Below, piece by piece: positions 8,317 through 58,634 of a stretch of 64,000 nt of DNA (the stretch's first letter is position 1; each line of letters starts with the position of its first letter). Source of the stretch: Flaccisagitta enflata (taxonomy: Eukaryota). The stretch lies in NCBI GenBank assembly GCA_965153355.1, contig OZ231126.1, positions 14,756,001-14,820,000 of the forward strand, given 5' to 3'. The notes beneath the pieces are model-generated. The model ran no database searches. It worked only from the letters and a program-made list of their open reading frames with translations, and was not told where the DNA came from. The position numbers and the translations under genes are program-made.

Positions 8317-10997
8317 CAGTCTATGGACAAAACGACAATCGCAACTTTTGCTAATCACTGGTAGGATGCTGAGGTGTGATCTTTTTCAAAATGCAGGCTT
8401 ATAACTGCTATGTAGAAAATTACTAAGGACTGAAGCAAACTTACAGAAGAACAATTACCACAGGGAGGCCATGTAAATTGTTAAAATGAACTTTTTAAAA
8501 ATTGAAAGCATATATGTTGGCATTCAGTCGCAAAGCCAGCCAGCAAATGTCAACTACCCTCCGTAAGTGTCAACTATCCCCCACAAGTGTCAAATCCCCC
8601 CCGCAGGTGTTGTCTACCCCCGGGCAAGTGTCACCTACCCCTCCAATTGTCCACTACCCCCTGCAAGTGTTGACTACCCCCCGCAAGTGTCGACTACCCC
8701 TCGCAAGTGTCGACTAGCTTTCGCAAGTGACAACTACCTGCAAGTGTCTACTACCCGCTGCAAGTGTTAACTACCCCCCACAAGTGTTGAATACCTCCCT
8801 CAAGTGTTGTCTACCCCGCAAAAGTGTCGACTACCCCCCAAAAGTGTCAACTACTCCCCAATTGTTGACTACCCCCCGCAAGTGTTGACTACCCCCCTTT
8901 AAGTGTCGACTACCTCCCGCAAGTATCAACTACCCCCGGTAAGTTTTGACTTCCTCTGTAAGTGTTGACTACCCCCTGCAAGTGTCAACCACCCCCTGCA
9001 AGTGTCGAATACTCCCCCCAAGTGTTGAATACTCTCAAAAGTGTCAACTATCCCTAAAAGTGTTGACTACCACCCCCACTACCCCCTGCAAGAGTTAACT
9101 ACCCCTGGCAAGTGTTGACTACCCCCGACAAGTGTCGACTACCCCTGGCAAGTGTTGACTACCCCCCGCAAGTGTCAACTACCCCTTGCAAGTGTTGATT
9201 ACCCCTTGACAGTGTAGACTACCTCGGGAAGTGTCAATTCCCCCTCCAAGTGCGAACTACCGCTCGCAAGTGTTGACTACCCCTTGCGAGTGTCAGTTAC
9301 CCCCAGCAAGTGTCAACTACCCCTGGCAAGTGTTGACTACCCCTGGCAAGTATCTATCACCTCTGCAAGTGTTGACTACCCCCCAAATGTCAACTACCCC
9401 CCTGCAAGTGTCGACCACCCTGCACAAGTGTCAACTACCCTTCAAGTGTCAACCTCCCGCTCAAGTGTCGACTACCCTGCAAGTGTATACTACCCCCAAG
9501 TGTCAACTACCTCCAAAAGTGTAGACTACCCTGCCTCAACTCCTCTCCAAGTGCTGACTACCCCCTGCAAGTGTCGACTATCCCCTCAAAAGTGTAGACT
9601 ACCCCAGCTAGTTTCAACTCCCCCTTGAAGTGTAGACCACCCCCGGCAAGTGTCAACAACCCCTGGTAAGTGTTGAATACCCCTGGCAAGAATCAACTAC
9701 CCCCTGCAAGTGTTGATTATTCCTCTCAAATGTTGATGACTTCCCATAAGTGTTTACTACCCTCGCAACATCAACTGCAAATGTCAACTACCCCCTACTA
9801 GCGTTAAATACCCTTTGAAAGGTTGACTACCCCAAACATAAACTTCCCAGGTGGTAGTTGACACTTTTGGGGGTAGACAACACTGTGTGTCGACACTTGT
9901 GGGGGTATTCGACACTTGTAGGGGTAGTCAACACTTGTCAGGGGTAGTAAACATTTGAGGGGGGTAGTCAACACTAGGGGGTAGTTGATTCTTGCCGAGG
10001 GTTGTTGATACCTGTGGGGGTATTCAACACTTGTGGGGGGTAGTTGACACTTGCGGGGGTAGTCGACATTTACGTGGTGTAGTGGACACCTGGGGGGTAG
10101 TCAATATTTGCAGAGGGTAGTCAACACTAGTTGACACTTGCAGTGGGTAGTCAACACTTGCAAGGGGTAGTCAATGCTTGGCTTGGGAGTTGACACTTGC
10201 TGGGGGTAGTCCACACTTCTGGGGGTAGTTGACACTTGCAGGGTAGGTAGTCGGCCCTTGTGGGGTAGTTGACACTTGCGGGGAGTCCACACTTTTGGGG
10301 TAGACAACACTTGTGGGGGGTATTTGACACATATGGGGGGTAGTTGACGTTAGCAAGAGTAGTCAACACTAGTGGGGGTATTCAACATTTGAGGGGGTAG
10401 TTGACACTTGCAGGGGGTAGTCAACACGCTCCGGGGGTACTCAACACTTTGAGGGGTAGTCGACACTTGCAGGGGGTAGTCTTCACTAAAAGGAGGTATT
10501 TAACAATTGCAGAGGGGTAGTTGACACTTGCAGGTGGTAGTTGACACTTGCAGGGGGTAGTAGACACTTGCAGGGGGGTAGTCAACACTTGCAAAAGGTA
10601 GTCGACATTTGCAAGAGGTAGGCGACACTTGCGGGGGGTAGTTAACACTTGCAGGGGGTAGTGGACAAATGGAGGGGTAGGTGACACTTGCCCGGGGGCA
10701 GACGACACCTGGGGGTGGTATTCGACACTTGCGGGGGGTAGTTGACACATGCGGGGGGTAGTTGACATTTGCTGGCCGGCATTGCGACTGAATTTCAACA
10801 TATGCTTTCAATTTTCAAAAAAGTTCATTTTAACTATTTACATGGCCTCTCTGTAGTAATTGTTCTTCTGTAAGTTTGCTTCAGTCCTTAGTATTTTTCT
10901 ACATGGCAGTTATAAGCCTGCATTTTGAAAAAGATCACACCTCAGCATCCTACCAGTGATTAGCAAAAGTTGCAATTGCCGTTTTGTCCATAGACTG
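8317..10997. mobile_element. Foldback-type element: ~230-bp terminal inverted repeats plus two inverted minisatellite arms
   Basis: TA|CAGTCTATGGACAAAACG...CGTTTTGTCCATAGACTG|TA. The TIRs continue into arrays of ~21-23-bp CAAGTGTYRACTACCCCC units, which switch to the reverse complement at about 9845. No transposase ORF. Confidence 0.92.
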
Positions 10998-30600: not shown

Positions 30601-32213
30601 GGCTTTTTGGGCAGCGGCCCCAAAGGGGTCGATGACCTATGGGGAACACACATATGGGGAATCTTCTCCTTCAGTGAACCCCCCTTAAATCCCAGCCTGG
30701 AGGCCTAAATTCCAGCAATGAGGCCAAAATCTTAGTCCCCAGGCCAAAATATCAGCCTCCAGGCTTGGATTTGGGCTTTGAGGCAAGGATTTGGGCCTTG
30801 AGGCTGGGATTTGGGCCTTGAGACTGAGATTTGGGCCTCGAGGCTGGAATTTTGGCCTCAAGACTGGGATTTGATGGGGAGTAAGCTGGAGAAGAAAATT
30901 CCCCATATGTGTGAAAGCATAGGTCATCGACCCCTTCGGGGCTGCTGCCCTGCCTCCCCTTCTACTTCAAGCACAACCTACATAAGCAGGGCACGGGTAC
31001 CGCTGGCCATCTAACGCTTTTGCGACTATTATTTTTTGCTTCAGTGCCCCTGCCCAAATTCTATTTTAGTCTTATGGACAGTGGCCAACAAAATAGATAA
31101 TTTCCTTTAAAACACAGCACAAAATTTTGTCCATTTGTCCTCGTCCCCGCATCTTTTCACCCTTAGTTTCCGTTGAGGCCCAAAATCTGCCCACCAAGAT
31201 GTTAATTTAAGGTGCAAGAAGTTAAAAGTCCTGAAAAAACATAATTTGAGGCAATACTACGCAAAACAAAAAAATGACGCATCTCTTTTTTTTTTTAATG
31301 GATAAAAAACAGTAATTTGAACTATATTCAATTGAGTCATTCTTAAAGATTTTCAAAACAAGGCACGGCCACCAAAGTCGCGGGTGGGCAGGGACCATAT
31401 TTGAGGTCATCAGACCATTTGGGCAGGAGCAGTGAGGTCAAAGAAATGAAATCATAAAAAAGTAAAGTGTGACCAACCAACCGACCGACGGACAAAGCGG
31501 GTTGTAGAGTCGCATGCACGCGACTAAAAATTCATTTTAGACCAACCCCAGGTCTGTATCTCAAAGGGTCGAGAAGCTCTGCAAAGAGAACTATTAGAGA
31601 AGCAATATTTTGCTGAAACACATTTTTTTAATGAGGATTTTGAATCTGAAATAGGCAACATTTTTACTCATTTCTAAATGAAAAAAGATAGAAATACAAG
31701 ATTGGCGCCAAAAGTACTTTCAAAGGGCTTTGAAATGATCTAAGATTTTAATTAGTTTTTCTAAAATTGTATGGCCAAATGAGCTTTTTTAAAGTGCGTC
31801 TTTTTATTTGTGGTATTGGGCTGATTTGAGGTCTGGAAGGTGTAATTTAAGGCCTAATCAGGCCTAAGAGGGCCAATATAGGTAACAGACGACTGAACAA
31901 ATCAATGTACCCCTGTGTTCTGCGGGACATGGGCCCTTTTGGGAAACTGCCCTAGAATGGATGGGTGGTAATGTTGACCATTTCTTTAACAGGACTGCAA
32001 ACACTTCCTCCGCTTCCTCAATCATCCCAGCTCAGAAGGCTTTGGGTAGATGATTGTTCCCTGGAATCACTCCCAAACAATTTGTTTGAATTTCAGTTGG
32101 AAGATGTATGTCTCGGTGGAAACAAAGGTATGATGATGATGGTGATGATGATGATGAGGATGGTGATGATGATGATGATGATGATAATGATGATGATGAT
32201 GATGATGATTAGT

Positions 32214-34223: not shown

Positions 34224-35033
34224 GTAGGCACATGCCCCCAACTCTTCTCCTCCAATTACTATCTAGGAAAAAGATAAAGAGGACAGCTGGATAAAAGCTA
34301 GCATTCTTACTCATTGAATGAAATATGAGTTCATATGAATATACCTTTGATCGTAAAGACATAATGTGTTTTGAGTTTCCTCAGGAGGGTTGGTCTTTGA
34401 TTATTTTTACCTAATTTGAAAAATCATTGAATCCTTTGCCTTTGATTTCATCAACAATAAAAAAAATTTAGATAAATGTATATAATCTAGTGAGGCCAAG
34501 CAAAATGATTTTGATCAATCGCTTTGGAAATGAGAGCTCTTTCAATGAAGCTAATTTCTACTACTTCACTTGTTTGAAAATAGCCGGCAAATTTTTCAGA
34601 AAGAATCCGGTCAAGTCGCGGAAAAGATTTTTCCCACAATCAATTTTTTTGCCAAACACATCAAAAGATCCAGCGGCCGACAGAGACGAAAACATTTTTC
34701 CCCCTCTCAATTGCCAACCTCTTTGCTATCGGCATTTTTTTGGATTTCAAAGGCGAAAGAATTTTCCTTTTTTTGTCTGAATTCAAAAAGGGGAGGTTTT
34801 TTTGTAATGCGGTGACAAATTCTATAAAGGCTAAAATCCTGAAAGGACTTGATCCCAGAAAAGACTTGATCCCAGATAAAGACTTGATCCTGCTAAACGA
34901 TTCCAGTAAAAGACTTTCAATTCCTGAAAACTCGATTTCCTGCTTAACGATCATAACCTACGGCGGCGGCGTGGCGGCGGCGGCAAACTCAGTCGGGCGT
35001 CAAGCTTTAATCAAGCAAAACGGCGTCTGGCTT

Positions 35034-36323
35034 ATGTCAGCAACCTCGACGGCGTCACCTCGGGCCCCTGGGGGGCGGGGGTCCCGAAAAATCAAGGAAA
35101 ACCCTCAATACCCATCGCAACCGGGTGTAAGGACGTCAGCGGAGAATCGGCGCCTGGCGGCGGCGGCGGCGCCGGACATGTCTAGTCCTTCAACAACGAC
35201 GAGACCAAAGACAGCACCGTCGACAACGCCAGGCTCAAAGGATAAGAAGAAAAGGCTCAGTTCATCGACGACGCCAAAGGGGGCGACGGCGTCGACGGCG
35301 ACAACGCCGACGGGGCTACTTCCGGCGTCGGCATCGATGCCGGTGGAAAGCGGCGGTGGCGGTGGCGGTGGCAACGCTGAAAAAGCTGATATCATGGTGA
35401 GATTAGCCCAATTGGAGGAGAAAGTTGAGAGATTTGAAGAGGAAGGAAAGCTAAAGGACCGGGAAATCTTTGAGCTCAGAGATCGTCTTGAGGAGGAGGA
35501 GTTTGAGAGGAAGAGAGTCGAGGATAGATTTAAAGATAGATTGGAGGAGGAAGGAAAGAAACAGGAGGAGGAAATCCGAGTTCTAAAGGAGAAAGTCTTG
35601 GAGCTGGAAAAGAAGGAGGAGGGCCGACAGGTGGTGGGAGCAGAAGATCCAAGGCAAGAAGAAGCCAGGGGGGAGCGGGAGAGGTATAAGGGAGTCATCC
35701 TAACGGACTCTAATGGAAGAGGAACAACCGAGGGCACCATTAAGAACCACATCCCGAGGAAAGAGAGGGGAAAGTTTGAGATTCGGGTGGATGACACGGC
35801 ATACACGATGGGAGAAGCCCTTGAACGCGTGGGTGTGGGGGAGGGGAAGGTGGATGTAAGTGGTGCAATAGTAGTGGTCGATTCCCTGACTAACGACATC
35901 AGAGGATCAAGGAAAGTGACTCCGGCGTCACCCGAGGAACTTGTGCATCGTGTTAGTCGGCTGTGGCAAGGACTGTTTGCAGCCGGTGCAGCAGCTGTTG
36001 TAATTTGCGAGGCCAAGCCAATGCGTGACGTCGATGTCTCTCAGCACAATCGCCTTCTCAGCGAGTTTTTGGAGAACAGTGGAGCAGGCGGATATGGTTG
36101 CAGAACCCAGATGAGAATGAACTATCTGAAGATGGATGGCGTCCATTTTTGACCTGAGTTTGGCTCTATCTTAGATCGCACTTATGCATGCGCTATATTA
36201 GGCATACATGTCCCGTGCCCTACCCCGCTTGAGGATTTTGTACCCGAGTTTGTGAGACGTAGGTGGGAGAGAGAGTGGCCTAGGATAGGTAGAGGTGGGC
36301 CAGGAAGGGCGCCCATGTTTTAG
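35034..36323 (+). pseudogene. LINE ORF1: coiled coil plus SGNH esterase-like domain, with a premature stop at 36150-36152
   Basis: Heptad-rich E/K/R segment; SGNH-like blocks ILTDSNGR, VVVDSLTNDIR and DGVHF. The frame stays open after the TGA up to TAG at 36323, 3 nt before the ORF2 ATG. Confidence 0.8.
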
Positions 36324-36326
36324 ACT

Positions 36327-39300
36327 ATGGCGGCTGGTTCTGTTGATCTGCGTGGAGTGGGGCGTTGCCCACGTTGCGAGGTTTGTGGTACCGCTGTTAG
36401 GACGAGGGGTCTGGGGGTTGGGGGGGTGTGGTGCCCGGGTTGCTTAGGTGGTGCCCTGCCCTTTGTTGGACTAGTGGCAGAGGGGGAGTTTAGGGGTGCC
36501 CTTAGGGAGTATAGGGAGGGGCTGGGGTCGAGGGCCAGGGACTTCTTGGGTTTGAGGTGAGGAGGTGAGGGGGGCTCTTGGGGGGGTGGACGCCACACTT
36601 AGGGGGTGTGGGTATGTTGGGGGGGACGAGGTCAGGGGGAAGCTTAGAGAGCGCGCCAGGGATGGGGGCTGTTCCCTCTCCCTCCTCTTCCATAATGTGA
36701 GGAGTGCGCGGGGGCCTGGGATGGAGTTGTTTGAGGCGGAGCTGAGGAGGTGGGGGGTCCAATGGGATGTGGTGGGGTTGGCTGAGACTTGGTTGGATGG
36801 GGAGAGTGAGAAGGGGGTGGCGGTTCAGGGTTACGGGGCGGTGTTTGCATCAAGGGGGAGCAAGAGGGGTGGGGGGGTGGCTCTACTTTTGAGGGATGGA
36901 CTCACGTACAGGGAGAGGCCTGACCTGGGGACTTTTACTGAGGGGGTTTTTGAGTCTCTGTTTGTGGAGATTGTTAGGGGAGGGGGATGTAGGAATGACA
37001 TAATTGGGGTGGTCTATAGGTCCCCAGGGGGAGACCTGGGGGTGTTTAATGATGAGATGGCCAGGGTGCTGACTAGACTCCGGGGGACGGACGCTTACAT
37101 AATGGGTGATTTCAATGTTGACTTGTTGAGGACTGGCACCCATGAGCCAATGTCAGACTTCATGGGGGGATTCTCATCAGGGGGTTTCTACCCCCTGATA
37201 TCTCTCCCCGCAAGGCTGACAGACACTACTGCGACATTGATAGATAACATATGGACCAATAACTTGGGGGTGGGTATTGGGAGTGGGTTGGTGACGGTCA
37301 GGGTGTCGGACCACCTCCCTGTGTTTGCGTTTGTTGGGGGAGGTGGGCCAATAGAGGGGCAGGGGAGTGGGGGGGTGGGAGGTAGGAGGCGGCTGGTGAA
37401 TGAGGGTCGCATTGGCCGGTTTGCTGAGGAGTTGGAGGGGTGGGCTTTTGATGTGGAGGGGGCCCTGGGAGTTGAGGGGAATGTTGCGCGTTTTCGGAAT
37501 GCCTTCAGGGATCTGTATGACGCGCGTTTCCCATGGGTTGAGGACAAGAGGAACCGGAGGTACATTGAGAAGCCCTGGCTCAATGACGCCGAGTTCAAGG
37601 GGCTGGTCAGGGAGAAGGGTGAGCTGTACTCCAGGAAGCTGAGGGGGTTGCTAGATGAGGAGGGTGGGCGTAGACTGGTTGAAGTAAACAGGACAGTGGG
37701 GAACATGAGGCAGCGCCTGAAGAGGGCTTACTTCAACCAGAGGCTGGGTGAGATAGGTGGGGACCTGAGGGCCACCTGGGAGGTTTTGGGGGAGGTTTTA
37801 AGGGGTAGGAAGGGTCAGGGTAAGGGGGCGCCGTGTCGCTACTTCCTGAAGGAGGGGGTGCCGGTGACAGACGGGGCGAGGATAGCGGAGGGGTTCTGTG
37901 ATTTTTATTGCCAGGTGGGGCCGGGGCTGGCGTCTAGGATAGGCAGGGAACGGGATGGGGCCTTCCTGGAGTACATGGGGGAGAGGGTTGAGGAGTCCCT
38001 CATCTGGAGCCCCACGACTCCATTTGAGGTGGAGGAGCTGTGTAGGTCTCTGGCTCCGAGGAAGGGGATGGGGTGGGATGGGGTGTCGCCGCGGGTGATT
38101 AGGGGGGTTGCGAGGGAGCTCTCTGGCTCCTTGTCGAGGCTCTTCAACTGCTGCATGCGGGGTGGTTTCTATCCTGCTTGCTTCAAGGTTGCAAGGGTGG
38201 TCCTGGTTTTCAAGGGAGGGGACCCCACTGAGTTCTCGAACTATCGCCCGGTTTCGGTCCTGCCTGTACTCTCTCAGCTCTTTGAGAGGGTGTTGCAGAA
38301 GAGGCTGGTGGCCTTCTTCGACAGGCACCGGGTGATCGTCCCGGGGCAGTATGGGTTCAGGGCTGGTCATTCCACGTCCATGGCTGTATTGGACATGGTG
38401 GAGAGGGTAAGGGGGGCATGGGAGAAAGGGGACGTCTCTCTTGGGGTTTTCATAGACCTCAAGAAGGCGTTCGACACAGTGGACCATCAGCTTCTCCTTG
38501 GGAAGCTGGAGCATTATGGAGTGAGGGGGCAGACTCTGGAGCTCCTCCGGAGTTACCTGGAGGGGAGGGCCCAGTATGTTCAGTATGGGGGTTTTGAGTC
38601 AGAAAGGGGTCAGGTTGAGTGTGGAGTCCCTCAAGGATCAGTGTTAGGCCCTCTGTTCTTCTTGATCTATGTCAACGACATGGCAAGAGCATGCAGGGGC
38701 CATGATCTGGTCCTTTTTGCGGATGACACAAATATTTTTGCCCAGGGGAGGGACCCTGCTGAGCTTTTTGGGTTGGTGAATGGGGGTTTGGGTGAGCTCA
38801 GCAGATGGTTTAGGTGCAACAGACTTACTCTGAACTTGAAAAAGACTGAGTTTGTCTACTTTGGCGGACCTGGGGCCAGGGGGCACCTACCGGAAAGGCT
38901 GGGGCTGGAGTTTGGAGGTGAGAGGGTGGTACAGGTGGATGGGTCTTGTTTTCTAGGGGTGTGGGTGGATGGGGGCTTGAGGTGGTCGGGGCAGATAGAG
39001 CAGGTCCGGACGAAGGTTGCCCGGCTGCTGGGGGTGCTTGGTAGGGCGGGGGAGGTTTTGAGTAGTGGGTCCCTTCTCTCGCTCTATAATGCGTTGGTCC
39101 TCCCACACCTGCAGTACTGCCTTATGGTGTGGGGAGATTTCAAGGGTGGGCGGAATCTGACAGTGGGGGGGGCTCTTCTTAGGTACCAGAAGAGATTTGC
39201 TGGCCTGGTTGCTGGAAAGAGGGGGCGGTACCATGCAGACCCGCCCCTGGCTCAGCATGGCATGCTCAAGGTGGAGGACCTGTACAGGCAACAGCTCCGG

Positions 39301-39495
39301 GTCCACGCCTGGTGCTTCTGGAGGGGCAGGCTCCAAGAGAACCAGGCAGCTATGCTGGGCAGGATTGATGGGGTGCATGGGTATGGGACGAGGGCTGCAA
39401 GGGGGGGGCTTTATCTTTCGACCAGGGACCATAGGTCAGTGGGGTACAGGGTGCTGAAGGAGTGGGCGGCTTTGGGGGAGGATCACAGGGGGTTT
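36327..39495 (+). pseudogene. LINE ORF2: Cys-rich N-terminus, APE endonuclease and reverse transcriptase; frameshift near 36560
   Basis: CEVC...WCPGCLGGALPF; APE motifs LAETW, YRSP, GDFNVD, TLIDNIW, SDHLPVF; RT motifs NYRPVSVLP, QYGFR, DLKKAFDTVDH, GVPQGSVLGP, FADDT. Confidence 0.95.
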
Positions 39496-41322
39496 GTTTG
39501 TTTGTTATCCAACGTAGAAGATCGAGTTGACTAAATAAAATCGTCCAGAGAAGAGAGAGAGTCAGAAAGGGAAATGTGGCCCGGAGAGTCCGAGTTGAAG
39601 GATGAGGATGAAGGAATCGAGAGAGTTGAGAAAAGCGAGTGAGAAGAAGAACCGCCCGGCGAAGGTGGTGGGGCCGGAGGTGGCCGGCCGTTAGGATGGA
39701 TTGACGGCGGCTATAAATTACGCCCACGAGTTTCAACTGGCACTGTCTATGAGCGTCTAGCTGACTGACGACTTGTGGTGAAAGAAAGTTGGCCGATTGG
39801 AAAATAGGAAGGCGATCGTCTCGTTTATTCCATAAAAATTTCAACAACTGAAGAGAGGGGATAAAATGAAAGGGAAAGTGGGCGTTAATGGTGATCAGCA
39901 AACGCAAAAGATAACATGAAATCGAGACAGGACACAATAAAGGACAGAAACAGCACATGACAACATGTTCATCTTCTTCAGAGCCCATGCCACCTGATAA
40001 TACCTGCCCCTGCCCCGGCCCATCCCATTAAATTCATCCATATCATCCCCATAGTAAGCTGATCGGGCAAACGATAAAACCATACTAAAATCCATCGATA
40101 AAATGCAAAATGCAAAAGACAAAAATAACAGACCGGAAGACAAGATAAAAACAACGTTACTAAAAGCAAAGACGCGTCTATAAAACTTACTTTTAGGCCC
40201 ACTTTCGTTGGTTTCAACCCACAGTCTGTCGATGTCAAACTAACGTTAATTGTCCGTTCATAAGTTTATCTGCAATAAAAAGATGAGAGATTATTGAAAT
40301 TAGTAAATTCCAAGGGCACATTCAATCAATCACGAAAAATCAATCAATCACTTTAGGAAGCACATTAAATAAAAATAAAAACAATCGATCCAAAATTGGA
40401 TGACACGAAACGAGTTACGTATGTTTGTTTACGTAATAAAAACAAATGGCATAAAATACAAGGCGCAACCATATGGTTACCCATCTAGCTTTATATAAAA
40501 ATGCGAGAAACAAAAGACACCGGCATTGAATAATAAGAAAGAAGAAAATCAAAAGCACGCAAAAGAAACAAAAGCACACATACTTAATAGACGGACGGAC
40601 ATACATTTCTAACATTCTGCCCCATATTTTTGGAATTTCACTAATTTCAAAACTGACATCTAGTTTCCGGTCGGGGAAACCTCACAAAAACCGACATTAC
40701 CTTCCTTAAAAAATTTACATAGACATGGTGCTCCTCGCCCTCCCCCGTCCACCGCCTCATATCCCCACCCCAATTATCATCAACAGATCGACGACTGCAC
40801 GAATGATGACTCCTGTCCGGAAAGGATCCACCACCAGCAAATTTTCAACGATCAACGATGACGCGGATGGAGACGAGTATGCACGAGGAGGTTGAGGCAC
40901 CCTGCCTCTGTAAAAGTTAAGGGAAAGGGGGGAAGGGAACGTGGCCTGGAGCACTCAAGCCTGGATTTGACTGAGAGGGAAACAATATAGGGGGTATACT
41001 ATCAGTAACATGTCATACGAAAGTATTCAGAAAATGACTAAAAAGACCATGTCTAAAACAAACACAACAAATGTACATGTTCCATAGGAAATCAAACAAA
41101 AACAAGACAAAATTAACAAATATTAACTATATATAAAAACGAACCCAAAGCAAAAAAAAATAGTAAGCATCATGGAACGACCACATCACCTATGCCTACC
41201 CATTACAGAGACGAGCGGGTCATTCCGGCCCAACATCTCACAATCTGTGGGCGGTAAAGGCGATGATGATATCGCCAACGGCACCGCATCGAAAGGCGTG
41301 AGGGTGGTGCAGCCGCCTGAGA

Positions 41323-50436: not shown

Positions 50437-52587
50437 AATTATGATTTCCTGAGTGATGTAGAATTGATAACCGTAAAAACGACCTCTTGAATTCTTAATC
50501 AGTGGGTTGGCCCTATAACCAGCCCCTTCATGACTCCACCCAGTCTCGCTCAACATAATAATTCATTTCATTTTCATCCATGATCAATCATCCGGTCGTT
50601 TGACCTAAAAAATGACCGCATAGACTTAGAGAGACTTTGACCCAAAAATGCCCATGGGCCTTGTTCCAAATTCATAAGTCATAATGGCCAAAGCGATACG
50701 TTTCATCAGGAAATGTTGAGATAGAGGAAGAGAGGGAAGAGAAATGGATGAAAAGAAGGAAAAAAAAGAACGCGAGAGAAAGAGAGATGAACATTTAAGG
50801 TCACGTAAGATAAACGGAAGAAGAGAAGCAATAGTCGCGGAAAATTGGGTAAGGATCAGGGATGAGGAAGCGGTTGACCGCTTCCAAGTTGAAGGATTGG
50901 AAAGATTCTTGTATCTGAACTTTAAATGGAAGCGGAAGCGAAATCGGAATTGAAAGCGGTATGAAAATCGCCTCCACATCCCTAGTTGGAACAGTATTTC
51001 ATTACGCGCATTCGCACTCTTTAAAAAAAAGGCTTTATTTCATAAATGAAACAGCGAGTCAAAGGGTGACGAGTAAGAATCAATTGATTTAAGAGGCAAT
51101 CAATAATGTAATACATTGGACTCGAAGCATGACCAAGCACCATATTTACATGGAAACAAGGCCAAGCAGGCCAAGTAGGTGCGCCGTGTCGATCGTCAAA
51201 CATATGCGTTACCCGACCAACCGACCAACCGACAGACACAGCCAGACGGACACAGGGATGCTTTGGCGCAGCTAAAAATGACAATTTAAATACATGTATA
51301 CAATGTAAAGAGTGGGAACATAAAAGATTATGCATTCATTCTCTGAAAGTGGTTTCCGGCAATTTTGCCCACAGAGTTCATGGCTCATTGCTCAGAGGAA
51401 TCCGTCAGAGCCGACCTATTGTATTGAATTTTCTCCAAAACAAGATAAAAGAAATAAAAGTCGCAAAAGCGTTAGATGGTCAGCGGTACCCGTGCCCTGC
51501 CTAATTAGGTTGTGTTTGAAGTTGAAGGGGAAGCAGGGCTGCGGCCCAGAGGGGGTCGATGACCTATGCTTTGACATATATGGGGAATTTTCGCCTTCTC
51601 TTGCATCCGTCCGTCCTTCTGTCAGTCCGTTCCCCCCAGTCTCGAGGCTCGAATCCAAGTGCCAAGACCCAAATCTCAGCCTCATGGCCCAAATCCTAGC
51701 CTCAAGGCCAAATTCTAGCCTGGAGGCTAGGATCTGCTTCTCTTGGCTGGGATTTGGGCCTCACGGCTGGGATTTGGGCCTCCGGACTAGGACTTGGGCC
51801 TCCAGGCTAGGATTTGGGCCACGAGGCTGGGATTTGGGTCTTGGGACTGGGATTTGAGCCTTGAGCCGAGGGGGGGACAGACGGACAGTTGGACGGACGG
51901 ACGGACGGACTGACGGACAGATGGAATGATGGACGGACGGACAGACGGACGGACGGATGGACAGACGGACGAACGGACTACAAAAGGATGGATGGACGGA
52001 TGGACGGACGGACGGAGGAGAAAGAGAAAATTCCCCAAATGTGTGAAAGTATAGGTCATCGCTGCCCAAAAAGGGGACCAACTGACCAACCAACTGACCA
52101 ACGGACTGACATAGCGGGGTGTAGAGTTGCGTATCCCGCGACTAAATAATGGCAGAGGATGGCGACCATATAGTTAACTAAGACATCAGATTTGGTACCT
52201 CAATGAGGTCAATGAATAGGAGGGTATACAGAACTGAAGCAGGACTGCCTTATAAATAGACTCAGAATTGGGCAAAGACAATGAAAAAAAATCTACAAGA
52301 ATAGTCCAAAAGATACTATCTATTTCCTCAAAGTCAAAGTCCTCAGGACCACTACAAAATGACCTTTCCTGCCATGTACAAATCTTACTTAATGAATTCT
52401 CGTTGTCCGTGGGATGATGAATATTTATAAACAACCCTTGTATTTGTGTTTGACCCTTATTTCAATGAAAATGATCAGGATTCAGGAAGCGATAGCTTTT
52501 TGATGTTCTCTTTAAAATTTCACCAAATTTATTGGACACCCTGTTAATGATAAGAGCCTTTTATGTTTTTCTCATATTTCTTCGACA

Positions 52588-53547: not shown

Positions 53548-55654
53548 GAATGTAGGAATGCGATAATCTCAGATGGTATACCATTTTCAGGCATGTCGTA
53601 TTTCTTGCATTATATTGACTGAAAACAACCATCACTCCCAATTGTCCAAAAGAGTGATATGTTATGGTTCAAAACGGATACGCAAAAAAAGTGCTACTGA
53701 CCTTCAGGCATTAGGTGTTCATACAAAATATTCGTCTCATTCTTTGATAAGCTGAACAAAAAATCACAAGCTGGTTTAAGATGAGGAGGATAACTTTGAT
53801 AGCACGTATATACATCCATGATATCAAGCTGGTTGAATATGAGGGGGATAACTTTGTTAGCAGGCATCCATATCCATGATATCAAGCTTGATTCCTTGCT
53901 ATATCAGTATAAATAAGTTTGAAATATCTAATTACTGCCTTGATTTGATTTTGCTAATCAGTGCTGTGCAAATCAGTAAAAATAAGTTTGAAATATTTAT
54001 TAACTACCTTGATTTGATTTTGCTAATCAGTAAGGTGCTAATCAATACTGTGCAAAACGGTTATGCTTAGTCTGTTTCTTAGTAGTACCGTCAGAACTGC
54101 ATTTGTTTCTGCCATAACTGTGAAAAAAATGCTGGATATTACCATTTTAAAACAAGACACAAATAACTGAGAGGCTGGAAACTGGCAAGACGGCATAAGA
54201 GAGCGAGACCTTTAGCCTGATAGACTGACCTACTTAGTAACTCACTGACCGGCAGACTGCCCCCCCCCTACAATACTAAGGGCGCACTCCATCCCCTCAT
54301 CTCTCTACCTCGACTGCTATACTTGACTACTTTTAAACTTGACTATTATTGAACTATGATTGGGTTGCACAACTTACTTTCTTACGTACTTACTGAATGA
54401 CGGTCTGACTGATCGATGGCTGACACTTGAAAGGTGAGTACAGTAACGTGAAAGAGACAGAGTCCCGTGCGCCGTAAAAGGCTTTAAAGGAAAGAGTTTC
54501 AGAATCCTAAAACTTTTAATCACCATTAGAAATTATTTCGGTTCTATACAAAAAACGATTTGGCGGAACTGAATGATGGAAGGTGTCCACTGTAGCGACT
54601 TCCAACTGTCACCTTTACTAATACTCGCTTCAAAATCAATTAGAATTAGAAATCTACTTTCAATGTAAAATGCAAAATCTGAATTTAATTATGATGCTGT
54701 CAAAATGAATCAAGATGTAACTGAATCCAGTTTTTTACAGAATAGAGAGTTGTATGCTACTCTAAATTGTCTTCTTTTATCTCTGTTTGAAACTTCAACA
54801 AGTTCAATAGCGTAAATAGATAATGGCACGCAATGCGTTGTGACAAGATGCACAAGACAGGGGAGGGGGGGATACGGACAGACGTAGAAGGAGAAAATTC
54901 CCCATATGTGTGAAAGCATAGGTCATCAACCCCTTCGGGGCCGCTGCCCAAAAAGGACGAAAGAGAAGCTGAGGAAGATGAGGAAGCGGAGGAGGCGGAG
55001 AAGGGGAGGAAGGTCGTCTCTGTCTGGAAATTCATTAGAGAGAAAAAGTTATTAGAGCAGTTTTGATGGATATGTATTCTCTCTCTGAGATGGCTTTTGC
55101 TCATCCTTTATCTTCTCATTACTTTGTCCTTTACTTCCTTCCATTATTTGTTTTACTTACCGTACTTGTTCCTTACTAATGGCTAATTCCGTGTTTCGTC
55201 ATGCGCGCGAGAAACCCTGACTCTCCACCATTGTAGAAGTGTCATTGCTTCTTCTGCTGAATTGCATAAGGTCACAAAGGTTGGGTGACATACCTAACTA
55301 TCTGGTGTGCCATACTAAACCAATTTTTGCCACACCGACTGCCCCTATGGGATCCAAAACAGGGGTAGAAGGGTCGATTTGGGCCTGTCCCGATTTTGTC
55401 CCTGCAAGCAAAACGCAAGTTTAACCAATCAAAAAATGTCAATTGGGGTCATCCAATAGCTTGTAAGCAATCACTGTCAATCCATTGATATGTGTAGAAA
55501 GTTTGTATTCAATATTTGTATATCTCTGCTCATCGCATTCATTAAAATGGTTCCTACGTCAGACTCAAAGCCAGTCACAGACTGGGGTATCTGCTAGGAC
55601 ACCAAAAACATATCCAATGGAACAAATCATCAGCCTCTAGTAAGTCAGCCTTCT

Positions 55655-55709
55655 TGGTCTAATGGTTAGAACACTTGCCTTCAGAAATGAGGGTCAGGGG
55701 TTCGAATCC
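55655..55709 (+). promoter_or_regulatory. tRNA-type Pol III internal promoter (A box and B box), repeated in each unit
   Basis: A box TGGTCTAATGG (55655-55665) and B box GGTTCGAATCC (55699-55709) at tRNA-like spacing. No run of 4 or more T in the unit; the first T5 is at 57467. Confidence 0.75.
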
Positions 55710-55728
55710 AGGACGGGCATGAAGGTAA

Positions 55729-55786
55729 CACAGGAGTTTGAGGGAGCGCTTAAAACGCTGAGTCGGTCCCAAGCCCGACAACTGTG
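55729..55786 (+). ncRNA. Twister ribozyme-like motif, P5-type permutation, copy 1
   Basis: CACAG-GA-GTTT-GAGGG-AGCGCT-TAA-AAC-GC-TGA-GTCGG-TCCCAAGC-CCGAC-AA-CTGTG: closing stem CACAG/CTGTG, P4 GTCGG/CCGAC with UCCCAAGC loop, GAGGG and GC pseudoknot partners; predicted U^A site at 55751/55752. Confidence 0.75.
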
Positions 55787-56025
55787 GTGACTTACTATGC
55801 TGATGTAAAACAAATTGTATATCTCTGCTCATCGCATTCATTAAAATGGTTCCTACGTCAGACTCAAAGCAAATCACAGTCTGGGCTATTGCCATGGACA
55901 CCAGTTGAAACTCTGCGAACTTATAATCAGCCTCTAGTAAGTCAGCCTTCATGGTCTAATGGTTAGAACACTTGCCTTCAGAAATGAGGGTCAGGGGTTC
56001 GAATCCAGAACGGGCATGAAGGTAA

Positions 56026-56083
56026 CACAGGAGTTTGAGGGAGCGCTTAAAATGCTGAGTCGGTCCCAAGCCCGACAACTGTG
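56026..56083 (+). ncRNA. Twister ribozyme-like motif, copy 2
   Basis: As copy 1; the AAAC>AAAT change keeps P2 as a G-U wobble. Confidence 0.72.
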
Positions 56084-56324
56084 GTGACTTACTATGCTGA
56101 TGTAAAACAAATTGTATATCTCTGCTCATCGCATTCATTAAAATGGTTCCTACGTCAGACTCAAAGCCAGTCACAGACTGGGGTATCTGCTAGGACACCA
56201 AAAACATATCCAATGGAACAAATCATCAGCCTCTAGTAAGTCAGCCTTCATGGTCTAATGGTTAGAACACTTGCCTTCAGAAATGAGGGTCAGGGGTTCA
56301 AATCCAGGACGGGCATGAAGGTAA

Positions 56325-56382
56325 CACAGGAGTTTGAGGGAGCGCTTAAAACGCTGAGTCGGTCCCAAGCCCGACAACTGTG
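56325..56382 (+). ncRNA. Twister ribozyme-like motif, copy 3
   Basis: Same sequence as copy 1. Confidence 0.75.
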
Positions 56383-56623
56383 GTGACTTACTATGCTGAT
56401 GTAAAACAAATTGTATATCTCTGCTCATCGCATTCATTAAAATGGTTCCTACGTCAGACTCAAAGCCAGTCACAGACTGGGGTATCTGCTAGGACACCAA
56501 AAACATAGCCAATGGAACAAATCATCAGCCTCTAGTAAGTCAGCCTTCATGGTCTAATGGTTAGAACACTTGCCTTCAGAAATGAGGGTCAGGGGTTCGA
56601 ATCCAGGACGGGCATGAAGGTAA

Positions 56624-56681
56624 CACAGGAGTTTGAGGGAGCGCTTAAAACGCTGAGTCGGTCCCAAGCCCGACAACTGTG
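56624..56681 (+). ncRNA. Twister ribozyme-like motif, copy 4
   Basis: Same sequence as copy 1. Confidence 0.75.
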
Positions 56682-56922
56682 GTGACTTACTATGCTGATG
56701 TAAAACAAATTGTATATCTCTGCTCATCGCATTCATTAAAATGGTTCCTACGTCAGACTCAAAGCCAGTCACAGACTGGGGTATCTGCTAGGACACCAAA
56801 AACATATCCAATGGAACAAATCATCAGCCTCTAGTAAGTCAGCCTTCATGGTCTAATGGTTAGAACACTTGCCTTCAGAAATGAGGGTCAGGGGTTCGAA
56901 TCCAGGACGGGCATGAAGGTAA

Positions 56923-56980
56923 CACAGGAGTTTGAGGGAGCGCTTAAAACGCTGAGTCGGTCCCAAGCCCGACAACTGTG
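56923..56980 (+). ncRNA. Twister ribozyme-like motif, copy 5
   Basis: Same sequence as copy 1. Confidence 0.75.
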
Positions 56981-57221
56981 GTGACTTACTATGCCGATGT
57001 AAAACAAATTGTATATCTCTGCTCATCGCATTCATTAAAATGGTTCCTACGTCAGACTCAAAGCCAGTCACAGACTGGGGTATCTGCTAGGACACCAAAA
57101 ACATATCCAATGGAACAAATCATCAGCCTCTAGTAAGTCAGCCTTCATGGTCTAATGGTTAGAACACTTGCCTTCAGAAATGAGGGTCAGGGGTTCGAAT
57201 CCAGGACGGGCATGAAGGTAA

Positions 57222-57279
57222 CACAGGAGTTTGAGGGAGCGCTTAAAACGCTGAGTCGGTCCCAAGCCCGACAACTGTG
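57222..57279 (+). ncRNA. Twister ribozyme-like motif, copy 6
   Basis: Same sequence as copy 1. Confidence 0.75.
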
Positions 57280-58634
57280 GTGACTTACTATGCTGATGTA
57301 AAACAAATTGTATATCTCTGCTCATCGCATTCATTAAAATGGTTCCTACGTCAGACTCAAAGCCAGTCACAGACTGGGGTATCTGCTAGGACACCAAAAA
57401 CATATCCAATATTTCAACTGTAAGATGACAAAAAATGAATTTGAATTATGATACTCTTCCCCTTTATTTTTCTGTCATTTTTTACTAAAAATGAGTTAGG
57501 TAGACAGTTTTTTTCGTAGGCCTATCTTTACTCAAACATTAAGCATTTTTTCTTTTTTCATTGTATTAAGGTTTAGTTGAAGGACCTTTCCTCCGATTTT
57601 CAAAGATTTTTTCCATTTCAATCATGAGAAATACTTATTTTCCTGGAGCGTTACAATTCAAAGGTGCTCCTTGTTGTAGCTGTCACACTTGTGTCACACT
57701 ATGATTCATACTATGCCACGGCATAGTAACATAAGTGACGAAAAATTCATCTACATAATGGGAAAGAAAATCAAATTCTGTACTTGCAGCTAAAATTTCA
57801 ACTCTTAACTCCAAACTGTTTGGTCACAGTGAAATTCCAAAGATGATCACTACAAAAATAAGAATTGAATTGTAATGCTCGCCGACCAAGCTTTGTAGTT
57901 AATTCTTTGTTTCCACACAGCGCTTCCCACACATATGTGCGATGCTTTTAAGTTTTATTTTGATAAAATTTCTCAAAATTCAAATTTGCATATCTCAGGA
58001 ACTATCTGAGTAAGCCCTATGAAATTTTGCCTGGTTGGTATCTAGATCAAGAGACTCCTTTGCCTAAATTCTGATGCGACCTAGAGAATGTTGAGCAGTC
58101 CAACCAGACCAACCAGCCTACCAGATAAAAAAATGAAAAAAAGGCATAACTTCTAAAATAGTTGACCGATCTGGTTGAAATTTTGCATGGAGCTTCCTTT
58201 AAAGATTCCTTGTCATTGGCATAAAAAAAAGCATGGGAAAAATTTTTTTCTTCCAACAGCCCACCCAGCCAGAAATAGTGCTTATAGAGATTTTCTTAAA
58301 AAACTAAAAAAATTCAAAAAAATTTCAGAAACATGATCACACATGTTTGCTTGAACGTTATCAATAAGAATTTCACTGTCAGATTGATTTCATAATTGTA
58401 TTTAGCTAAATTTTCTAGTAATAAAATTGCCAACAATATCTATTTAAGCCTAATTTGCATGGAAAATGAGTTTACTTAAGAAAATCTAAGTATGGATTTA
58501 TATGTAAGAATAGGTGAGCTACATGATGACATATGGTTTTGTTCAATTTTCAAACATGTAAAATTGACAAATTTCATCCCGTCCACGGTCGGCTTAGCGT
58601 GACACCAGTCTAATGAATTTGGATCTCTGGGTGT

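What the first reader, a model, noticed from the sequence alone, without database searches (positions are those of the whole stretch)
55516..57410. Candidate twister-based retrozyme: tandem 299-bp units each carrying Pol III boxes and a permuted twister ribozyme
Seen: about 6.3 near-identical head-to-tail units, each with tRNA-type A/B boxes followed by a twister-like fold, no oligo-T terminator inside the unit and no credible protein. Established: metazoan non-LTR retrozymes (e.g. schistosome SM-alpha, newt satellite 2) are tandem arrays of small units that self-cleave with hammerhead ribozymes to give monomers and circles; twister ribozymes occur in RTE-clade retrotransposon 5' regions. Inference: read-through Pol III transcription gives a multimer that the ribozyme cuts every ~299 nt into monomers with 5'-OH and 2',3'-cyclic phosphate ends. 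These could be circularised (RtcB-type ligation) and re-inserted as concatemers by a borrowed reverse transcriptase. I know of no well-described twister plus tRNA-promoter version of this life cycle, but I could not run a literature or database search.
Basis: partly seen in the sequence, partly recalled or inferred. Interest (0 to 1): 0.95.

Follow-up and report, generated by a model that had tools for sequence, protein, structure and literature searches.

The report
Tandem repeat with twister ribozymes
A 1.9-kb block of six head-to-tail 299-base units, each pairing a tRNA-like promoter head with a stripped-down twister self-cutting RNA motif, looks like a twister-based counterpart of the hammerhead "retrozymes" that make small RNA circles in animals.

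Summary
TRF finds a 299-bp x 6.3 array at 55516-57410. All 6 full units match the Rfam type-P5 twister model. The match is below threshold (30.4 bits against 37.6; E 7e-4 locally, 0.022 window-wide). The conserved loop nucleotides, P2, P4 and both pseudoknot complements are present. Only the P1 hairpin is missing, replaced by a loopless palindrome AGCGCU. Published work says P1 is dispensable (PMC5408937, PMC11662667).

Each ribozyme follows a degenerate tRNA-like head with a perfect B box and a near-consensus A box at canonical positions. The tRNA covariance model does not recognise it.

The cleavage-to-cleavage 299-nt RNA is unusually stable (z -4.8 to -5.8). An 8-bp direct repeat abuts both array ends (P about 0.001). 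Near-identical units with the head-to-tail junction occur in contigs of 4 of 4 marine runs laid, three of them RNA libraries.

Best reading: a retrozyme-like or SM-alpha-like non-autonomous element using twister instead of hammerhead. Cleavage, Pol III transcription, circles and reverse transcription are inferred, not shown. It is a new variant of a known kind.

The parts
55516..57410 (+). Tandem array, 299-bp unit x 6.3 (u1 55516-55813, u2 55814-56108, u3 56109-56407, u4 56408-56706, u5 56707-57005, u6 57006-57304, partial u7 57305-57410)
   Evidence: TRF; alignment A1; pairwise identities
55510..55517 (.). Left copy of the 8-bp direct repeat CAATATTT (candidate target-site duplication). Its last 2 nt overlap unit-homologous sequence.
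   Evidence: Sequence; null tests give P 0.0135 (loose) and 0.001 (abutting both junctions)
57407..57414 (.). Right copy of the 8-bp direct repeat CAATATTT. Its first 4 nt (CAAT) overlap unit-homologous sequence, giving a microhomology.
55729..55786 (+). Twister domain of unit 1 (P5 strand CACAG through P5 strand CUGUG). Predicted cleavage between U55751 and A55752.
   Evidence: cmscan hit 55736-55778, 30.4 bits; P5 in the MFE fold
56026..56083 (+). Twister domain of unit 2. Predicted cleavage U56048/A56049. P2 carries a C-to-U change that turns a G-C pair into G-U.
   Evidence: cmscan hit 56034-56075, 29.7 bits; alignment
56325..56382 (+). Twister domain of unit 3. Predicted cleavage U56347/A56348.
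   Evidence: cmscan hit 56332-56374; a 61-nt RNA-run contig over 56329-56389 with 0 differences and depth 96
56624..56681 (+). Twister domain of unit 4: CACAG(P5)-GA-GUU(P2)-U-GAGGG(L1)-AGCGCU(loopless P1)-U/AA-AAC(P2)-GC(T2)-UGA-GUCGG(P4)-UCCCAAGC(L4)-CCGAC(P4)-AA-CUGUG(P5). Predicted cleavage U56646/A56647.
   Evidence: cmscan hit 56631-56673; structure evaluation
56923..56980 (+). Twister domain of unit 5. Predicted cleavage U56945/A56946.
   Evidence: cmscan hit 56930-56972
57222..57279 (+). Twister domain of unit 6. Predicted cleavage U57244/A57245.
   Evidence: cmscan hit 57229-57271
56543..56621 (+). tRNA-like head of unit 4: 79 nt, closed by the 9-bp stem GCCUUCAUG/CAUGAAGGU, with an A-box-like TGGTCTAATGG at positions 8-18 and the B box GGTTCGAATCC at positions 52-62. 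The same element lies at 55648-55726, 55945-56023, 56244-56322, 56842-56920 and 57141-57219.
   Evidence: Fold of -36.4 kcal/mol; ARAGORN at -ps80 calls 55648-55719 as Phe(GAA)-like; no tRNA CM hit
56683..56700 (+). 5' strand of the long-range helix (UGACUUACUA + GCUGAUG) that extends P5 into a three-way junction
   Evidence: MFE of the cleavage-to-cleavage monomer
56822..56841 (+). 3' strand of the long-range helix (CAUCAGC + UAGUAAGUCA), directly upstream of the next tRNA-like head
55871..55924 (+). Divergent patch of unit 2 (the variable domain of the family). The rest of the unit is nearly identical to the others.
   Evidence: Alignment A1, columns about 60-115; other variants of this region appear as loose ends in public runs
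57467..57471 (+). First T5 run downstream of the array, a possible Pol III stop for read-through transcripts

Best explanation
The block is a non-autonomous, non-coding repeat element of the retrozyme / SM-alpha kind that uses a twister ribozyme instead of a hammerhead.

Each 299-bp unit carries a degenerate tRNA-derived head with A and B boxes (a candidate internal Pol III promoter). About 10 nt downstream sits a compact type-P5 twister whose P1 hairpin is reduced to a loopless AGCGCU.

Inferred mechanism:
- Transcription starts at any head and runs through the downstream units.
- Each twister cuts between U and A of the UAA loop (for example U56646/A56647).
- This releases 299-nt monomers with 5'-OH and 2',3'-cyclic phosphate ends.
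- The ends are held together by P2, P5 and a long-range helix.
- Such ends are the substrates of RtcB-type tRNA ligase, so circles are expected.
- New genomic copies arise by reverse transcription of multimeric or circular RNA by a borrowed retrotransposon enzyme, leaving a target-site duplication.

Shown here: the array, the motif content, the fold stability, the flanking 8-bp direct repeat, and near-identical head-to-tail units in independent DNA and RNA runs.

Inferred: Pol III use, cleavage, circularisation and retrotransposition.
For: 1. All 6 of 6 full units hit Twister-P5. GAGGG, UAA, GC and GGUCCCAAGCC are identical to the consensus. P2 is GUU/AAC (3 bp), the same P2 length as in the 54-60-bit twisters of L002. 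P4 is GUCGG/CCGAC. The T1 (GGG/CCC) and T2 (GC/GC) complements are present. These pairings are my reading.
2. The missing P1 is not disqualifying. Twister keeps wild-type activity with P1 deleted (PMC5408937, abstract and passages). P1 imperfections had no effect in a high-throughput assay (PMC11662667, passages).
3. Two one-sided changes keep pairing. C-to-U in P2 of u2 gives G-U. A56328G in P5 of two variant contigs gives G-U.
4. The monomer MFE is -102.3 kcal/mol, z -4.8 linear and -5.8 circular, each against 100 dinucleotide shuffles. P5 opens onto a three-way junction with the tRNA-like hairpin and a 17-bp long-range helix.
5. Only the + strand carries a ribozyme, as in retrozymes.
6. The flanks have no homology to the unit. 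An 8-bp direct repeat abuts both junctions, P about 0.001. The CAAT microhomology at the 3' junction fits target-primed reverse transcription (inference).
7. Of 24 listed runs, 20 hold the unit's words. They come from 14 studies, and 6 are RNA libraries.
8. In 4 of 4 runs laid (3 RNA, 1 DNA), a contig bridges unit end to unit start. Two contigs of 328 nt equal a 298-nt cycle plus k-1 letters.
9. Variable-domain variants appear in u2 and in the runs, which shows a family rather than a single local duplication.
Against: - The CM score is below Rfam's gathering cut-off (30.4 against 37.6; one search gave 0 hits). The window-wide E is only 0.022.
- The six hits are not independent.
- There is no covariation within the family, because the twister core is invariant.
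- The tRNA-likeness fails the tRNA CM and default ARAGORN.
- The absence of TTTT is not significant (P 0.5).
- Contigs cannot show strand, RNA ends or circles. RNA libraries can contain DNA, and I laid no silent control stretch.
- Only one array lies in the 64-kb window, and no genome was available to count loci.
- The array ends coincide with neither the cleavage site nor the presumed transcription start.
- There is no LINE-like 3' tail, and no similarity to the one LINE in the window.
- The TSD was noticed post hoc.
- Unit 2's foreign patch does not fit a simple copy of one circle.
Confidence: 0.55

Rival explanations
1. This is ordinary SINE-derived satellite DNA. A tRNA-derived repeat that once carried a twister was amplified at the DNA level, by unequal crossing-over or by extrachromosomal circles. 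The ribozyme is a silent relic, and the RNA-library signal is read-through transcription or DNA carry-over.
For: - The twister score is sub-threshold and P1 is lost.
- u3-u6 are 99.3-99.7% identical, as local homogenisation would give.
- The head-to-tail junction is present in the DNA run as well.
- Contigs cannot show transcription.
- The array ends do not match RNA ends.
Against: - All conserved twister nucleotides and both pseudoknot complements are intact in 6 of 6 units, and in the main contigs of 4 of 4 runs laid. Differences lie elsewhere in the unit.
- The highest-depth RNA contig is the twister core, with 0 differences.
- The whole monomer is folded around the ribozyme, with z about -5.
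- The 8-bp flanking repeat indicates insertion.
Confidence: 0.2
2. This is a SINE whose twister is a 5'-processing device, as in the RTE element Perere-3. The tRNA-like head drives Pol III transcription, the twister then removes the head, and the linear downstream RNA is the retrotransposition template. Tandem arrays are by-products, and no circle is involved.
For: [quoted passage not shown]
- Truncated twisters at RTE 5' ends are mentioned as unpublished work (PMC7761336, passage).
- The head-then-ribozyme order is seen here.
- The array is flanked by a TSD-like repeat.
Against: - The ribozyme here is the permuted type P5, with about 22 nt of essential ribozyme upstream of the cut. A 5'-terminal cutter would be type P1.
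- Cleaved linear copies would lose their promoter. PMC6765202 (passage) makes this point for SM-alpha.
- No monomeric copy, 3' tail or partner-LINE similarity was found in the window.
- The monomer fold brings the two ends together.
Confidence: 0.12
3. The twister match is a chance resemblance, and the unit is a tRNA-derived repeat with no ribozyme ancestry.
For: The window-wide E-value is 0.022, the score is below the curated threshold, and there is one independent sequence.
Against: - The match includes the 12-nt L4/P4 block plus GAGGG, UAA and GC at the correct spacing, with P2, P4 and P5 pairing.
- A second, unrelated metagenomic contig (L001) shows the same unusual loopless-P1 layout at 34.8 bits, with compensatory P4 changes.
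Confidence: 0.06

Closest known systems
Metazoan non-LTR retrozymes (type I hammerhead tandem repeats of about 170-400 bp giving small circRNAs; PMC7229834, abstract and passages; 10.64898/2026.07.22.740005, abstract and passages)
   Same: Short non-coding units in head-to-tail arrays, one self-cleaving ribozyme per unit on one strand only, a stable branched monomer fold, and units found in transcriptome data. The expected cleavage ends suit RtcB ligation.
   Different: The ribozyme class is twister, not hammerhead; there is no hammerhead hit in the window. A tRNA-like A/B-box head is present. No link to Penelope-like elements was seen. CircRNA is not demonstrated here.
Schistosoma SM-alpha SINE-like elements (Pol III promoter plus hammerhead, in tandem repeats; as described in PMC6765202, passages)
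   Same: A tRNA-type internal promoter followed by a self-cleaving ribozyme in every unit of a tandem repeat. The same logic applies: only multimers keep a promoter upstream of a complete unit.
   Different: Twister instead of hammerhead, and a different host group (a marine eukaryote; the neighbouring LINE's nearest clusters are mostly echinoderm). Transcription and cleavage are untested.
Twister T-variants at the 5' end of the RTE retrotransposon Perere-3 (PMC8501958)
   Same: A eukaryotic twister with a weak or absent P1, tied to retroelement biology and lying next to a TSD.
   Different: Those are type P1 with a P3 stem, one per protein-coding element, with P1 partly built from the TSD. 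Here the twister is type P5, has no ORF, and is repeated in tandem after a tRNA-like head.
Asymmetric twister-bearing viroid-like cccRNAs from metatranscriptomes (930 clusters; 10.1101/2022.07.19.500677, passages)
   Same: Small RNAs with a twister on one polarity only, recovered as circular or concatemeric assemblies from environmental RNA. The present unit is also found in marine metatranscriptome contigs.
   Different: Here the unit is encoded as a chromosomal DNA array with unique flanks. In the passages I read, no genomic origin or tRNA-like head was described for those clusters.
Engineered Tornado-type circRNA expression (tandem twister ribozymes; cited in a passage of PMC7229834)
   Same: Twister cleavage on both sides of an RNA, followed by cellular ligation, as the route to circles.
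   Different: That is a synthetic construct with two different flanking ribozymes. Here there is one natural ribozyme per repeat unit.

Membership tests
Twister ribozyme, type P5 (Rfam RF02684, clan CL00120) | Covariance-model score at or above the curated gathering score (37.6 bits) | tested here: not met
   30.4 bits (29.7 in u2) in 6 of 6 units; E 7e-4 and 0.022-0.033; 0 hits in gathering mode
Twister ribozyme, type P5 (Rfam RF02684, clan CL00120) | Highly conserved L1 and L4 nucleotides (GAGGG, UAA, GC, GUCCCAAGC) | tested here: met
   All are identical to the model consensus in the cmscan alignment. The conservation rule comes from PMC5408937 (passage) and Table 1 of PMC8501958.
Twister ribozyme, type P5 (Rfam RF02684, clan CL00120) | Stems P2 and P4, and pseudoknot complements T1 and T2 | tested here: met
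   P2 GUU/AAC, P4 GUCGG/CCGAC, T1 GGG/CCC and T2 GC/GC are read. A 3-bp P2 is also seen in the 54-60-bit twisters of L002.
Twister ribozyme, type P5 (Rfam RF02684, clan CL00120) | P1 stem next to the cleavage site (a hairpin in type P5) | tested here: not met
   Six nucleotides (AGCGCU) with no loop. The hairpin energy is 0.0 kcal/mol. The literature says P1 is dispensable (PMC5408937, PMC11662667).
Twister ribozyme, type P5 (Rfam RF02684, clan CL00120) | Site-specific self-cleavage at U/A | not testable with these tools
   Needs in vitro transcription, or raw-read end mapping. Only contigs were available.
Non-LTR retrozyme (metazoan) | Tandem non-coding units of about 170-400 bp, each with a self-cleaving ribozyme | tested here: met
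   299 bp x 6.3; ribozyme motif in 6 of 6 units; longest open frame 98 aa
Non-LTR retrozyme (metazoan) | The ribozyme is a type I hammerhead | tested here: not met
   No hammerhead hit at E<=10 in the array or at E<=1 in the window
Non-LTR retrozyme (metazoan) | Accumulates as unit-length circular RNA | tested here: inconclusive
   The head-to-tail junction is in 3 of 3 RNA runs laid, but also in the DNA run. Contigs cannot tell circles from tandem copies.
SM-alpha-like Pol III SINE with ribozyme | Internal A and B boxes upstream of the ribozyme in each unit | tested here: met
   The B box is an exact GGTTCGAATCC at positions 52-62. The A-box-like TGGTCTAATGG lies at positions 8-18 of the head. 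The box consensus is recalled, not taken from a call.
SM-alpha-like Pol III SINE with ribozyme | Transcription by RNA polymerase III | not testable with these tools
   The lack of TTTT in the unit is uninformative (P 0.5)
tRNA-derived SINE | Recognisable tRNA-derived head | tested here: inconclusive
   No tRNA CM hit. ARAGORN calls only u1, and only at -ps80. The box positions and the 9-bp acceptor-like stem do fit.
tRNA-derived SINE | LINE-related or A-rich 3' tail, and dispersed monomeric copies | tested here: not met
   No tail, no similarity to the window's LINE, and no other copy in 64 kb. The genome-wide picture is unknown.
RTE 5'-terminal twister (T-variant) | Sits at the 5' end of an RTE open reading frame | tested here: not met
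   No ORF follows the ribozyme. The only LINE lies about 16 kb away and is unrelated in sequence.

The most novel reading that the evidence does not exclude
The loopless palindrome that replaces P1 is functional. Two ribozyme copies, from adjacent units of a multimeric transcript or from two molecules, would pair AGCGCU with AGCGCU. This would form a domain-swapped double twister with two composite active sites, so that cutting depends on the multimeric state and monomers or circles are protected. That would be the twister equivalent of the double hammerheads of newt satellite, amphibian retrozymes and Penelope-like elements. Together with the tRNA-like Pol III head, the element would be a natural Tornado-like circRNA factory.

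Support:
- As a hairpin, P1 has 0.0 kcal/mol. As a homoduplex it has -8.3 to -10.9 kcal/mol.
- The swapped dimer evaluates to -22.1 kcal/mol, against -10.6 for two monomers, pseudoknots ignored.
- The only other short-linker type-P5 twister found, L001, has a different but again self-complementary linker (GCACGUGU), with the same P2 and compensatory P4 changes.
- None was found in 185,579 prokaryotic genomes (0 hits) or in IMG/VR (its 1 hit was an ordinary twister).

Against:
- There are only two examples.
- A stem that merely lost its loop is palindromic by descent.
- P1-less twisters cleave well as monomers.
Probability: 0.2. Interest if true: 0.8.

Novelty: new variant of a known kind. Interest (0 to 1): 0.62.

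Why it matters
If confirmed, this would show four things.

1. The retrozyme life style (tandem DNA units, self-cut monomers, RNA circles, re-insertion) has been reached with a second, unrelated ribozyme class. That argues the architecture, not the hammerhead itself, is what selection favours.
2. At least some of the many asymmetric twister "viroid-like" circular RNAs seen in environmental metatranscriptomes may be host-encoded repeat transcripts of marine eukaryotes rather than infectious agents.
3. It would provide a natural counterpart of the engineered twister-based circRNA expression systems.
4. It would give a compact, easily testable P1-less type-P5 twister whose palindromic linker may make it the first dimer-dependent twister.

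Tried and rejected
- Whole-genome census: no genome is held for this window.
- Other copies in the window: blastn of the unit found nothing outside the array except a 14-nt word.
- Paralogous empty site for the flanks: none. Only the far-left 50 nt of the flank match other repeats.
- Flank-to-unit homology: not above shuffles.
- tRNA detection: ARAGORN at default gave 0. The Rfam tRNA model gave no hit even on a 111-nt slice.
- Oligo-T absence as a Pol III argument: rejected, because 50% of shuffles lack TTTT.
- Survey for more loopless-P1 twisters, metagenome scan: 4 hits, of which 3 are ordinary twisters whose inner GAGGG or short hairpin matched the pattern.
- Survey, IMG/VR: 1 hit, an ordinary twister.
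- Survey, prokaryotic genomes: 0 hits.
- Scan of IMG/VR for the head's B-box-to-stem segment: 0 hits.
- Host placement: the LINE's nearest atlas clusters are mostly echinoderm, on very few records. The second atlas query was uninformative. The host is left as "marine eukaryote, probably an invertebrate animal".
- Earlier scan notes: nothing for this genome or sequence. The word search returned only prokaryote and phage twister cases.
- NCBIfam on the LINE gave only a generic RT match.
- Depth figures from contigs were not used to argue for expression or copy number.

Full report
**1. Observation**

Tandem Repeats Finder reports one array at 55516-57410 with period 299, 6.3 copies, 96% matches and score 3597. 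It is by far the longest-period clean array in the window. An alignment of the units and pairwise identities show that u3-u6 are 99.3-99.7% identical. Unit u1 is 98.3-98.7% identical to them. Unit u2 is only 92.6-93.3% identical to the others, because one patch of about 50 nt (about 55871-55924) is replaced by unrelated sequence while the rest of the unit is conserved.

The unit occurs nowhere else in the 64-kb window, and no whole genome is held. The longest stop-to-stop frame over the array is 98 aa, so there is no credible protein.

**2. The ribozyme**

At Rfam's curated thresholds nothing in the window is called. In E-value mode the type-P5 twister model RF02684 matches all 6 full units on the + strand. 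The score is 30.4 bits (29.7 in u2) against a gathering score of 37.6. E is 7e-4 for the 2.1-kb search and 0.022-0.033 for the whole window. The six hits are copies of one sequence, so they count as one observation.

The alignment, in unit 4 coordinates 56624-56681, reads CACAG(P5)-GA-GUU(P2)-U-GAGGG-AGCGCU-U/AA-AAC(P2)-GC-UGA-GUCGG(P4)-UCCCAAGC-CCGAC(P4)-AA-CUGUG(P5).
- Every nucleotide that the model and the literature treat as highly conserved is present. These are the L1 and L4 nucleotides (PMC5408937, passage; Table 1 of PMC8501958).
- The complements for pseudoknots T1 (GGG/CCC) and T2 (GC/GC) are also present.
- A 3-bp P2 with the same one-column deletion occurs in three twisters of 54-60 bits on the metagenomic contig L002.

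What costs the score is P1. The model expects a hairpin, but here there are six nucleotides with no loop, whose hairpin energy is 0.0 kcal/mol. This does not argue against activity. Twister keeps wild-type activity when P1 is deleted (PMC5408937, abstract and passages). In a massively parallel assay, P1 imperfections, length and stability had no effect on cleavage (PMC11662667, passages).

The predicted scissile bonds are U55751/A55752, 56048/9, 56347/8, 56646/7, 56945/6 and 57244/5. No ribozyme-like match lies on the minus strand or elsewhere in the window.

**3. The tRNA-like head**

A 79-nt segment ends 2 nt before the P5 strand. In unit 4 it spans 56543-56621, and the equivalents in the other five units are listed under parts. 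It folds to -36.4 kcal/mol and is closed by a 9-bp stem, GCCUUCAUG/CAUGAAGGU. Counting from its first base, TGGTCTAATGG occupies positions 8-18 and GGTTCGAATCC positions 52-62. These are the canonical places of the tRNA A and B boxes. The box consensus is recalled, not taken from a call.

The segment is nevertheless degenerate. The Rfam tRNA model gives no hit at E<=10. ARAGORN finds nothing at default settings, and only unit 1 (Phe-GAA-like) at a lowered threshold.

The + strand of the unit has no TTTT, and the first T5 lies at 57467, about 55 nt past the array. However, half of the shuffled units also lack TTTT, so this says nothing by itself.

**4. Architecture of the RNA**

The 299-nt RNA from one predicted cut to the next has an MFE of -102.3 kcal/mol. 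The z-score is -4.8 linear and -5.8 when folded as a circle, each against 100 dinucleotide shuffles. The predicted helices are these:
- P5 (CUGUG/CACAG) opens onto a three-way junction.
- One arm is the tRNA-like hairpin.
- The other arm is a 17-bp long-range helix (56683-56700 with 56822-56841) leading to the variable domain.

The monomer containing u2's foreign patch keeps P5, the long helix and the head. It re-pairs the variable domain differently. The whole unit is thus built as an extension of the ribozyme's closing stem, which brings the two cleavage ends together.

**5. Insertion signature**

The 300 nt on either side of the array show no homology to the unit beyond shuffle level. The same 8-nt word, CAATATTT, lies at both junctions (55510-55517 and 57407-57414).
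- A shared word of at least 8 nt occurs in 1.35% of control pairs of 35-nt windows.
- It occurs in 0.1% of control pairs when both words must lie within 14-nt windows abutting the junctions.

I noticed the repeat before testing it, so this is post hoc. Four nucleotides of the right copy (CAAT) and two of the left copy (TT) are also unit sequence. Such microhomologies are what target-primed reverse transcription on an internal site of a multimeric or circular RNA would leave. That is inference. No paralogous empty site exists in the window to confirm it.

**6. The family outside the window**

The unit's sampled words are held by 20 of 24 listed public runs, and 17 of them hold half or more. All are labelled marine or seawater metagenomes. 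They come from 14 studies, and 6 rows are RNA libraries.

I laid 4 of the 20: three RNA runs (X12, X17, X20) and one presumed DNA run (X1). All four are stored as assembled contigs.
- In 4 of 4, a contig joins position 56407 back to 56109, with at least 48 letters on each side.
- In X1 and X12 the contig is 328 letters. That equals a 298-nt unit plus k-1 letters, which is a closed cycle in the assembly graph.
- The common environmental unit differs from the window's u3 by one deleted base and a few substitutions.
- None of the listed differences falls in the twister core (56329-56389).
- In X17 a 61-nt contig covering exactly this core has 0 differences and the highest depth.
- Two divergent contigs carry A56328G in P5, which keeps pairing as G-U. 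Unit 2's C-to-U in P2 does the same.
- Other contigs run off into different variable-domain sequences.

Limits: contigs cannot show strand, ends, level, or circle versus tandem. RNA libraries can contain DNA, and I had no second call to lay a silent control stretch.

**7. Mechanism**

The best-supported reading is a non-autonomous repeat element that works like the hammerhead retrozymes of animals (PMC7229834). In layout it is even closer to the Schistosoma SM-alpha SINE-like repeats, which combine a Pol III promoter with a hammerhead in tandem units (PMC6765202, passages).

The inferred sequence of events is as follows:
- Transcription runs through several units.
- Each twister cuts.
- Unit-length RNAs are released whose ends sit in one loop.
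- A tRNA ligase joins the ends.
- Multimeric or circular RNA is copied back into DNA by a borrowed reverse transcriptase.

The SM-alpha argument applies here too. After cleavage the promoter lies near the 3' end of the monomer, so only arrays or circles can propagate (PMC6765202, passage).

Rivals:
- A silent SINE-derived satellite.
- A SINE whose twister only trims the 5' leader, as in Perere-3 (PMC8501958).
- A chance match.

The evidence for and against each is set out in the Rival explanations section.

**8. The palindromic linker**

AGCGCU cannot form a hairpin, but it forms a 6-bp homoduplex of -8.3 kcal/mol, or -10.9 with the flanking G-U pairs. I wrote out a fully domain-swapped dimer in which P1 is shared and P2 and P5 are intermolecular. 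It evaluates to -22.1 kcal/mol, against -10.6 for two separate monomers, pseudoknots ignored.

I then searched for other type-P5 twisters with very short GAGGG-to-UAA linkers.
- JGI metagenome contigs gave 4 hits. Three are ordinary twisters. One, L001 (34.8 bits), has the linker GCACGUGU, which is again self-complementary. It has the same P2 and a P4 with two compensatory changes.
- IMG/VR gave 1 hit, an ordinary twister.
- The 185,579 prokaryotic genomes gave 0 hits.

Two examples are too few. A stem that simply lost its loop is palindromic by descent. I therefore keep the dimer as the novel case (probability about 0.2), not the main reading. Dimer-dependent hammerheads in newt satellite, amphibian retrozymes and Penelope-like elements are the precedent (PMC7229834, abstract; PMC6765202, passages).

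**9. Comparison with the literature**

I ran eight full-text searches. I read passages of ten papers, and for PMC8501958 the outline and two named sections as well. I found the following:
- Hammerhead-only retrozymes in plants and animals.
- Twister variants at the 5' end of an RTE element (PMC8501958; also the "in preparation" remark in PMC7761336).
- Twister candidates newly predicted in echinoderms and other invertebrates, with no mention of tandem arrays (PMC11662667: 0 occurrences of "tandem").
- 930 asymmetric twister-bearing circular-RNA clusters from metatranscriptomes (10.1101/2022.07.19.500677).
- No natural dimeric twister.

I saw no description of a chromosomal tandem array that combines a tRNA-like head with a twister. 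Supplementary candidate lists were closed, and the original twister discovery paper is not in the library. This family may therefore already sit unremarked in such lists.

**10. Verdict**

The ribozyme call is probably right, at about 85-90% that it is a genuine twister-derived motif, though formally sub-threshold. The retrozyme-like interpretation is the best available, but it rests on inference for every dynamic step. It is a new variant of a known kind. Interest is 0.62, rising if the dimer mode or the circles are confirmed.

Noticed in passing
L001:1-1388 (minus strand as read): This metagenomic contig has a sub-threshold type-P5 twister (34.8 bits, at 425-381) whose P1 is a loopless self-complementary GCACGUGU. 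A 7-bp hairpin precedes it. About 85 nt downstream lies an 89-aa ORF fragment ending in an HSLRSGGAT...GRWTSDA..YIR motif, which looks like a tyrosine-recombinase C-terminus (a recalled resemblance, not tested). A partial duplicate GCUGUUGAGGG lies about 110 nt upstream.
   Followed up: partly
window:34584-39534: A LINE-like element. A 992-aa frame at 36556-39534 has an AP-endonuclease and a reverse-transcriptase domain. A 522-aa upstream frame at 34584-36152 has only a borderline FAM76 match and is probably ORF1. The nearest atlas clusters are mostly echinoderm. There is no sequence similarity to the 299-bp unit.
   Followed up: partly
window:8543-10772: Two large arrays of a 20-nt repeat lie in opposite orientation: GCAAGTGTCGACTACCCCCC at 8543-9713, and its reverse complement at 9889-10772. 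Together they form a palindromic satellite of about 2.2 kb.
   Followed up: no
window:5417-5655, 30655-30905, 51663-51865: Clusters of 20-21-nt repeats are arranged as inverted blocks. They give weak plant and animal miRNA-precursor CM hits, for example MIR7533 at 68 bits against a cut-off of 230. They are probably hairpin-forming MITE-like repeats. The far-left flank of the array (54900-54950) matches sequence beside two of these three clusters.
   Followed up: no
window:13889-14869: An 82-bp tandem repeat with 12.2 copies and 95% matches. It was not examined.
   Followed up: no
L002:3092-5984: A GC-rich metagenomic contig carries three above-threshold type-P5 twisters (54-60 bits) and a hammerhead-II-like match (29 bits) within 3 kb. 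This clustered-ribozyme layout is known from bacteria and phages.
   Followed up: no
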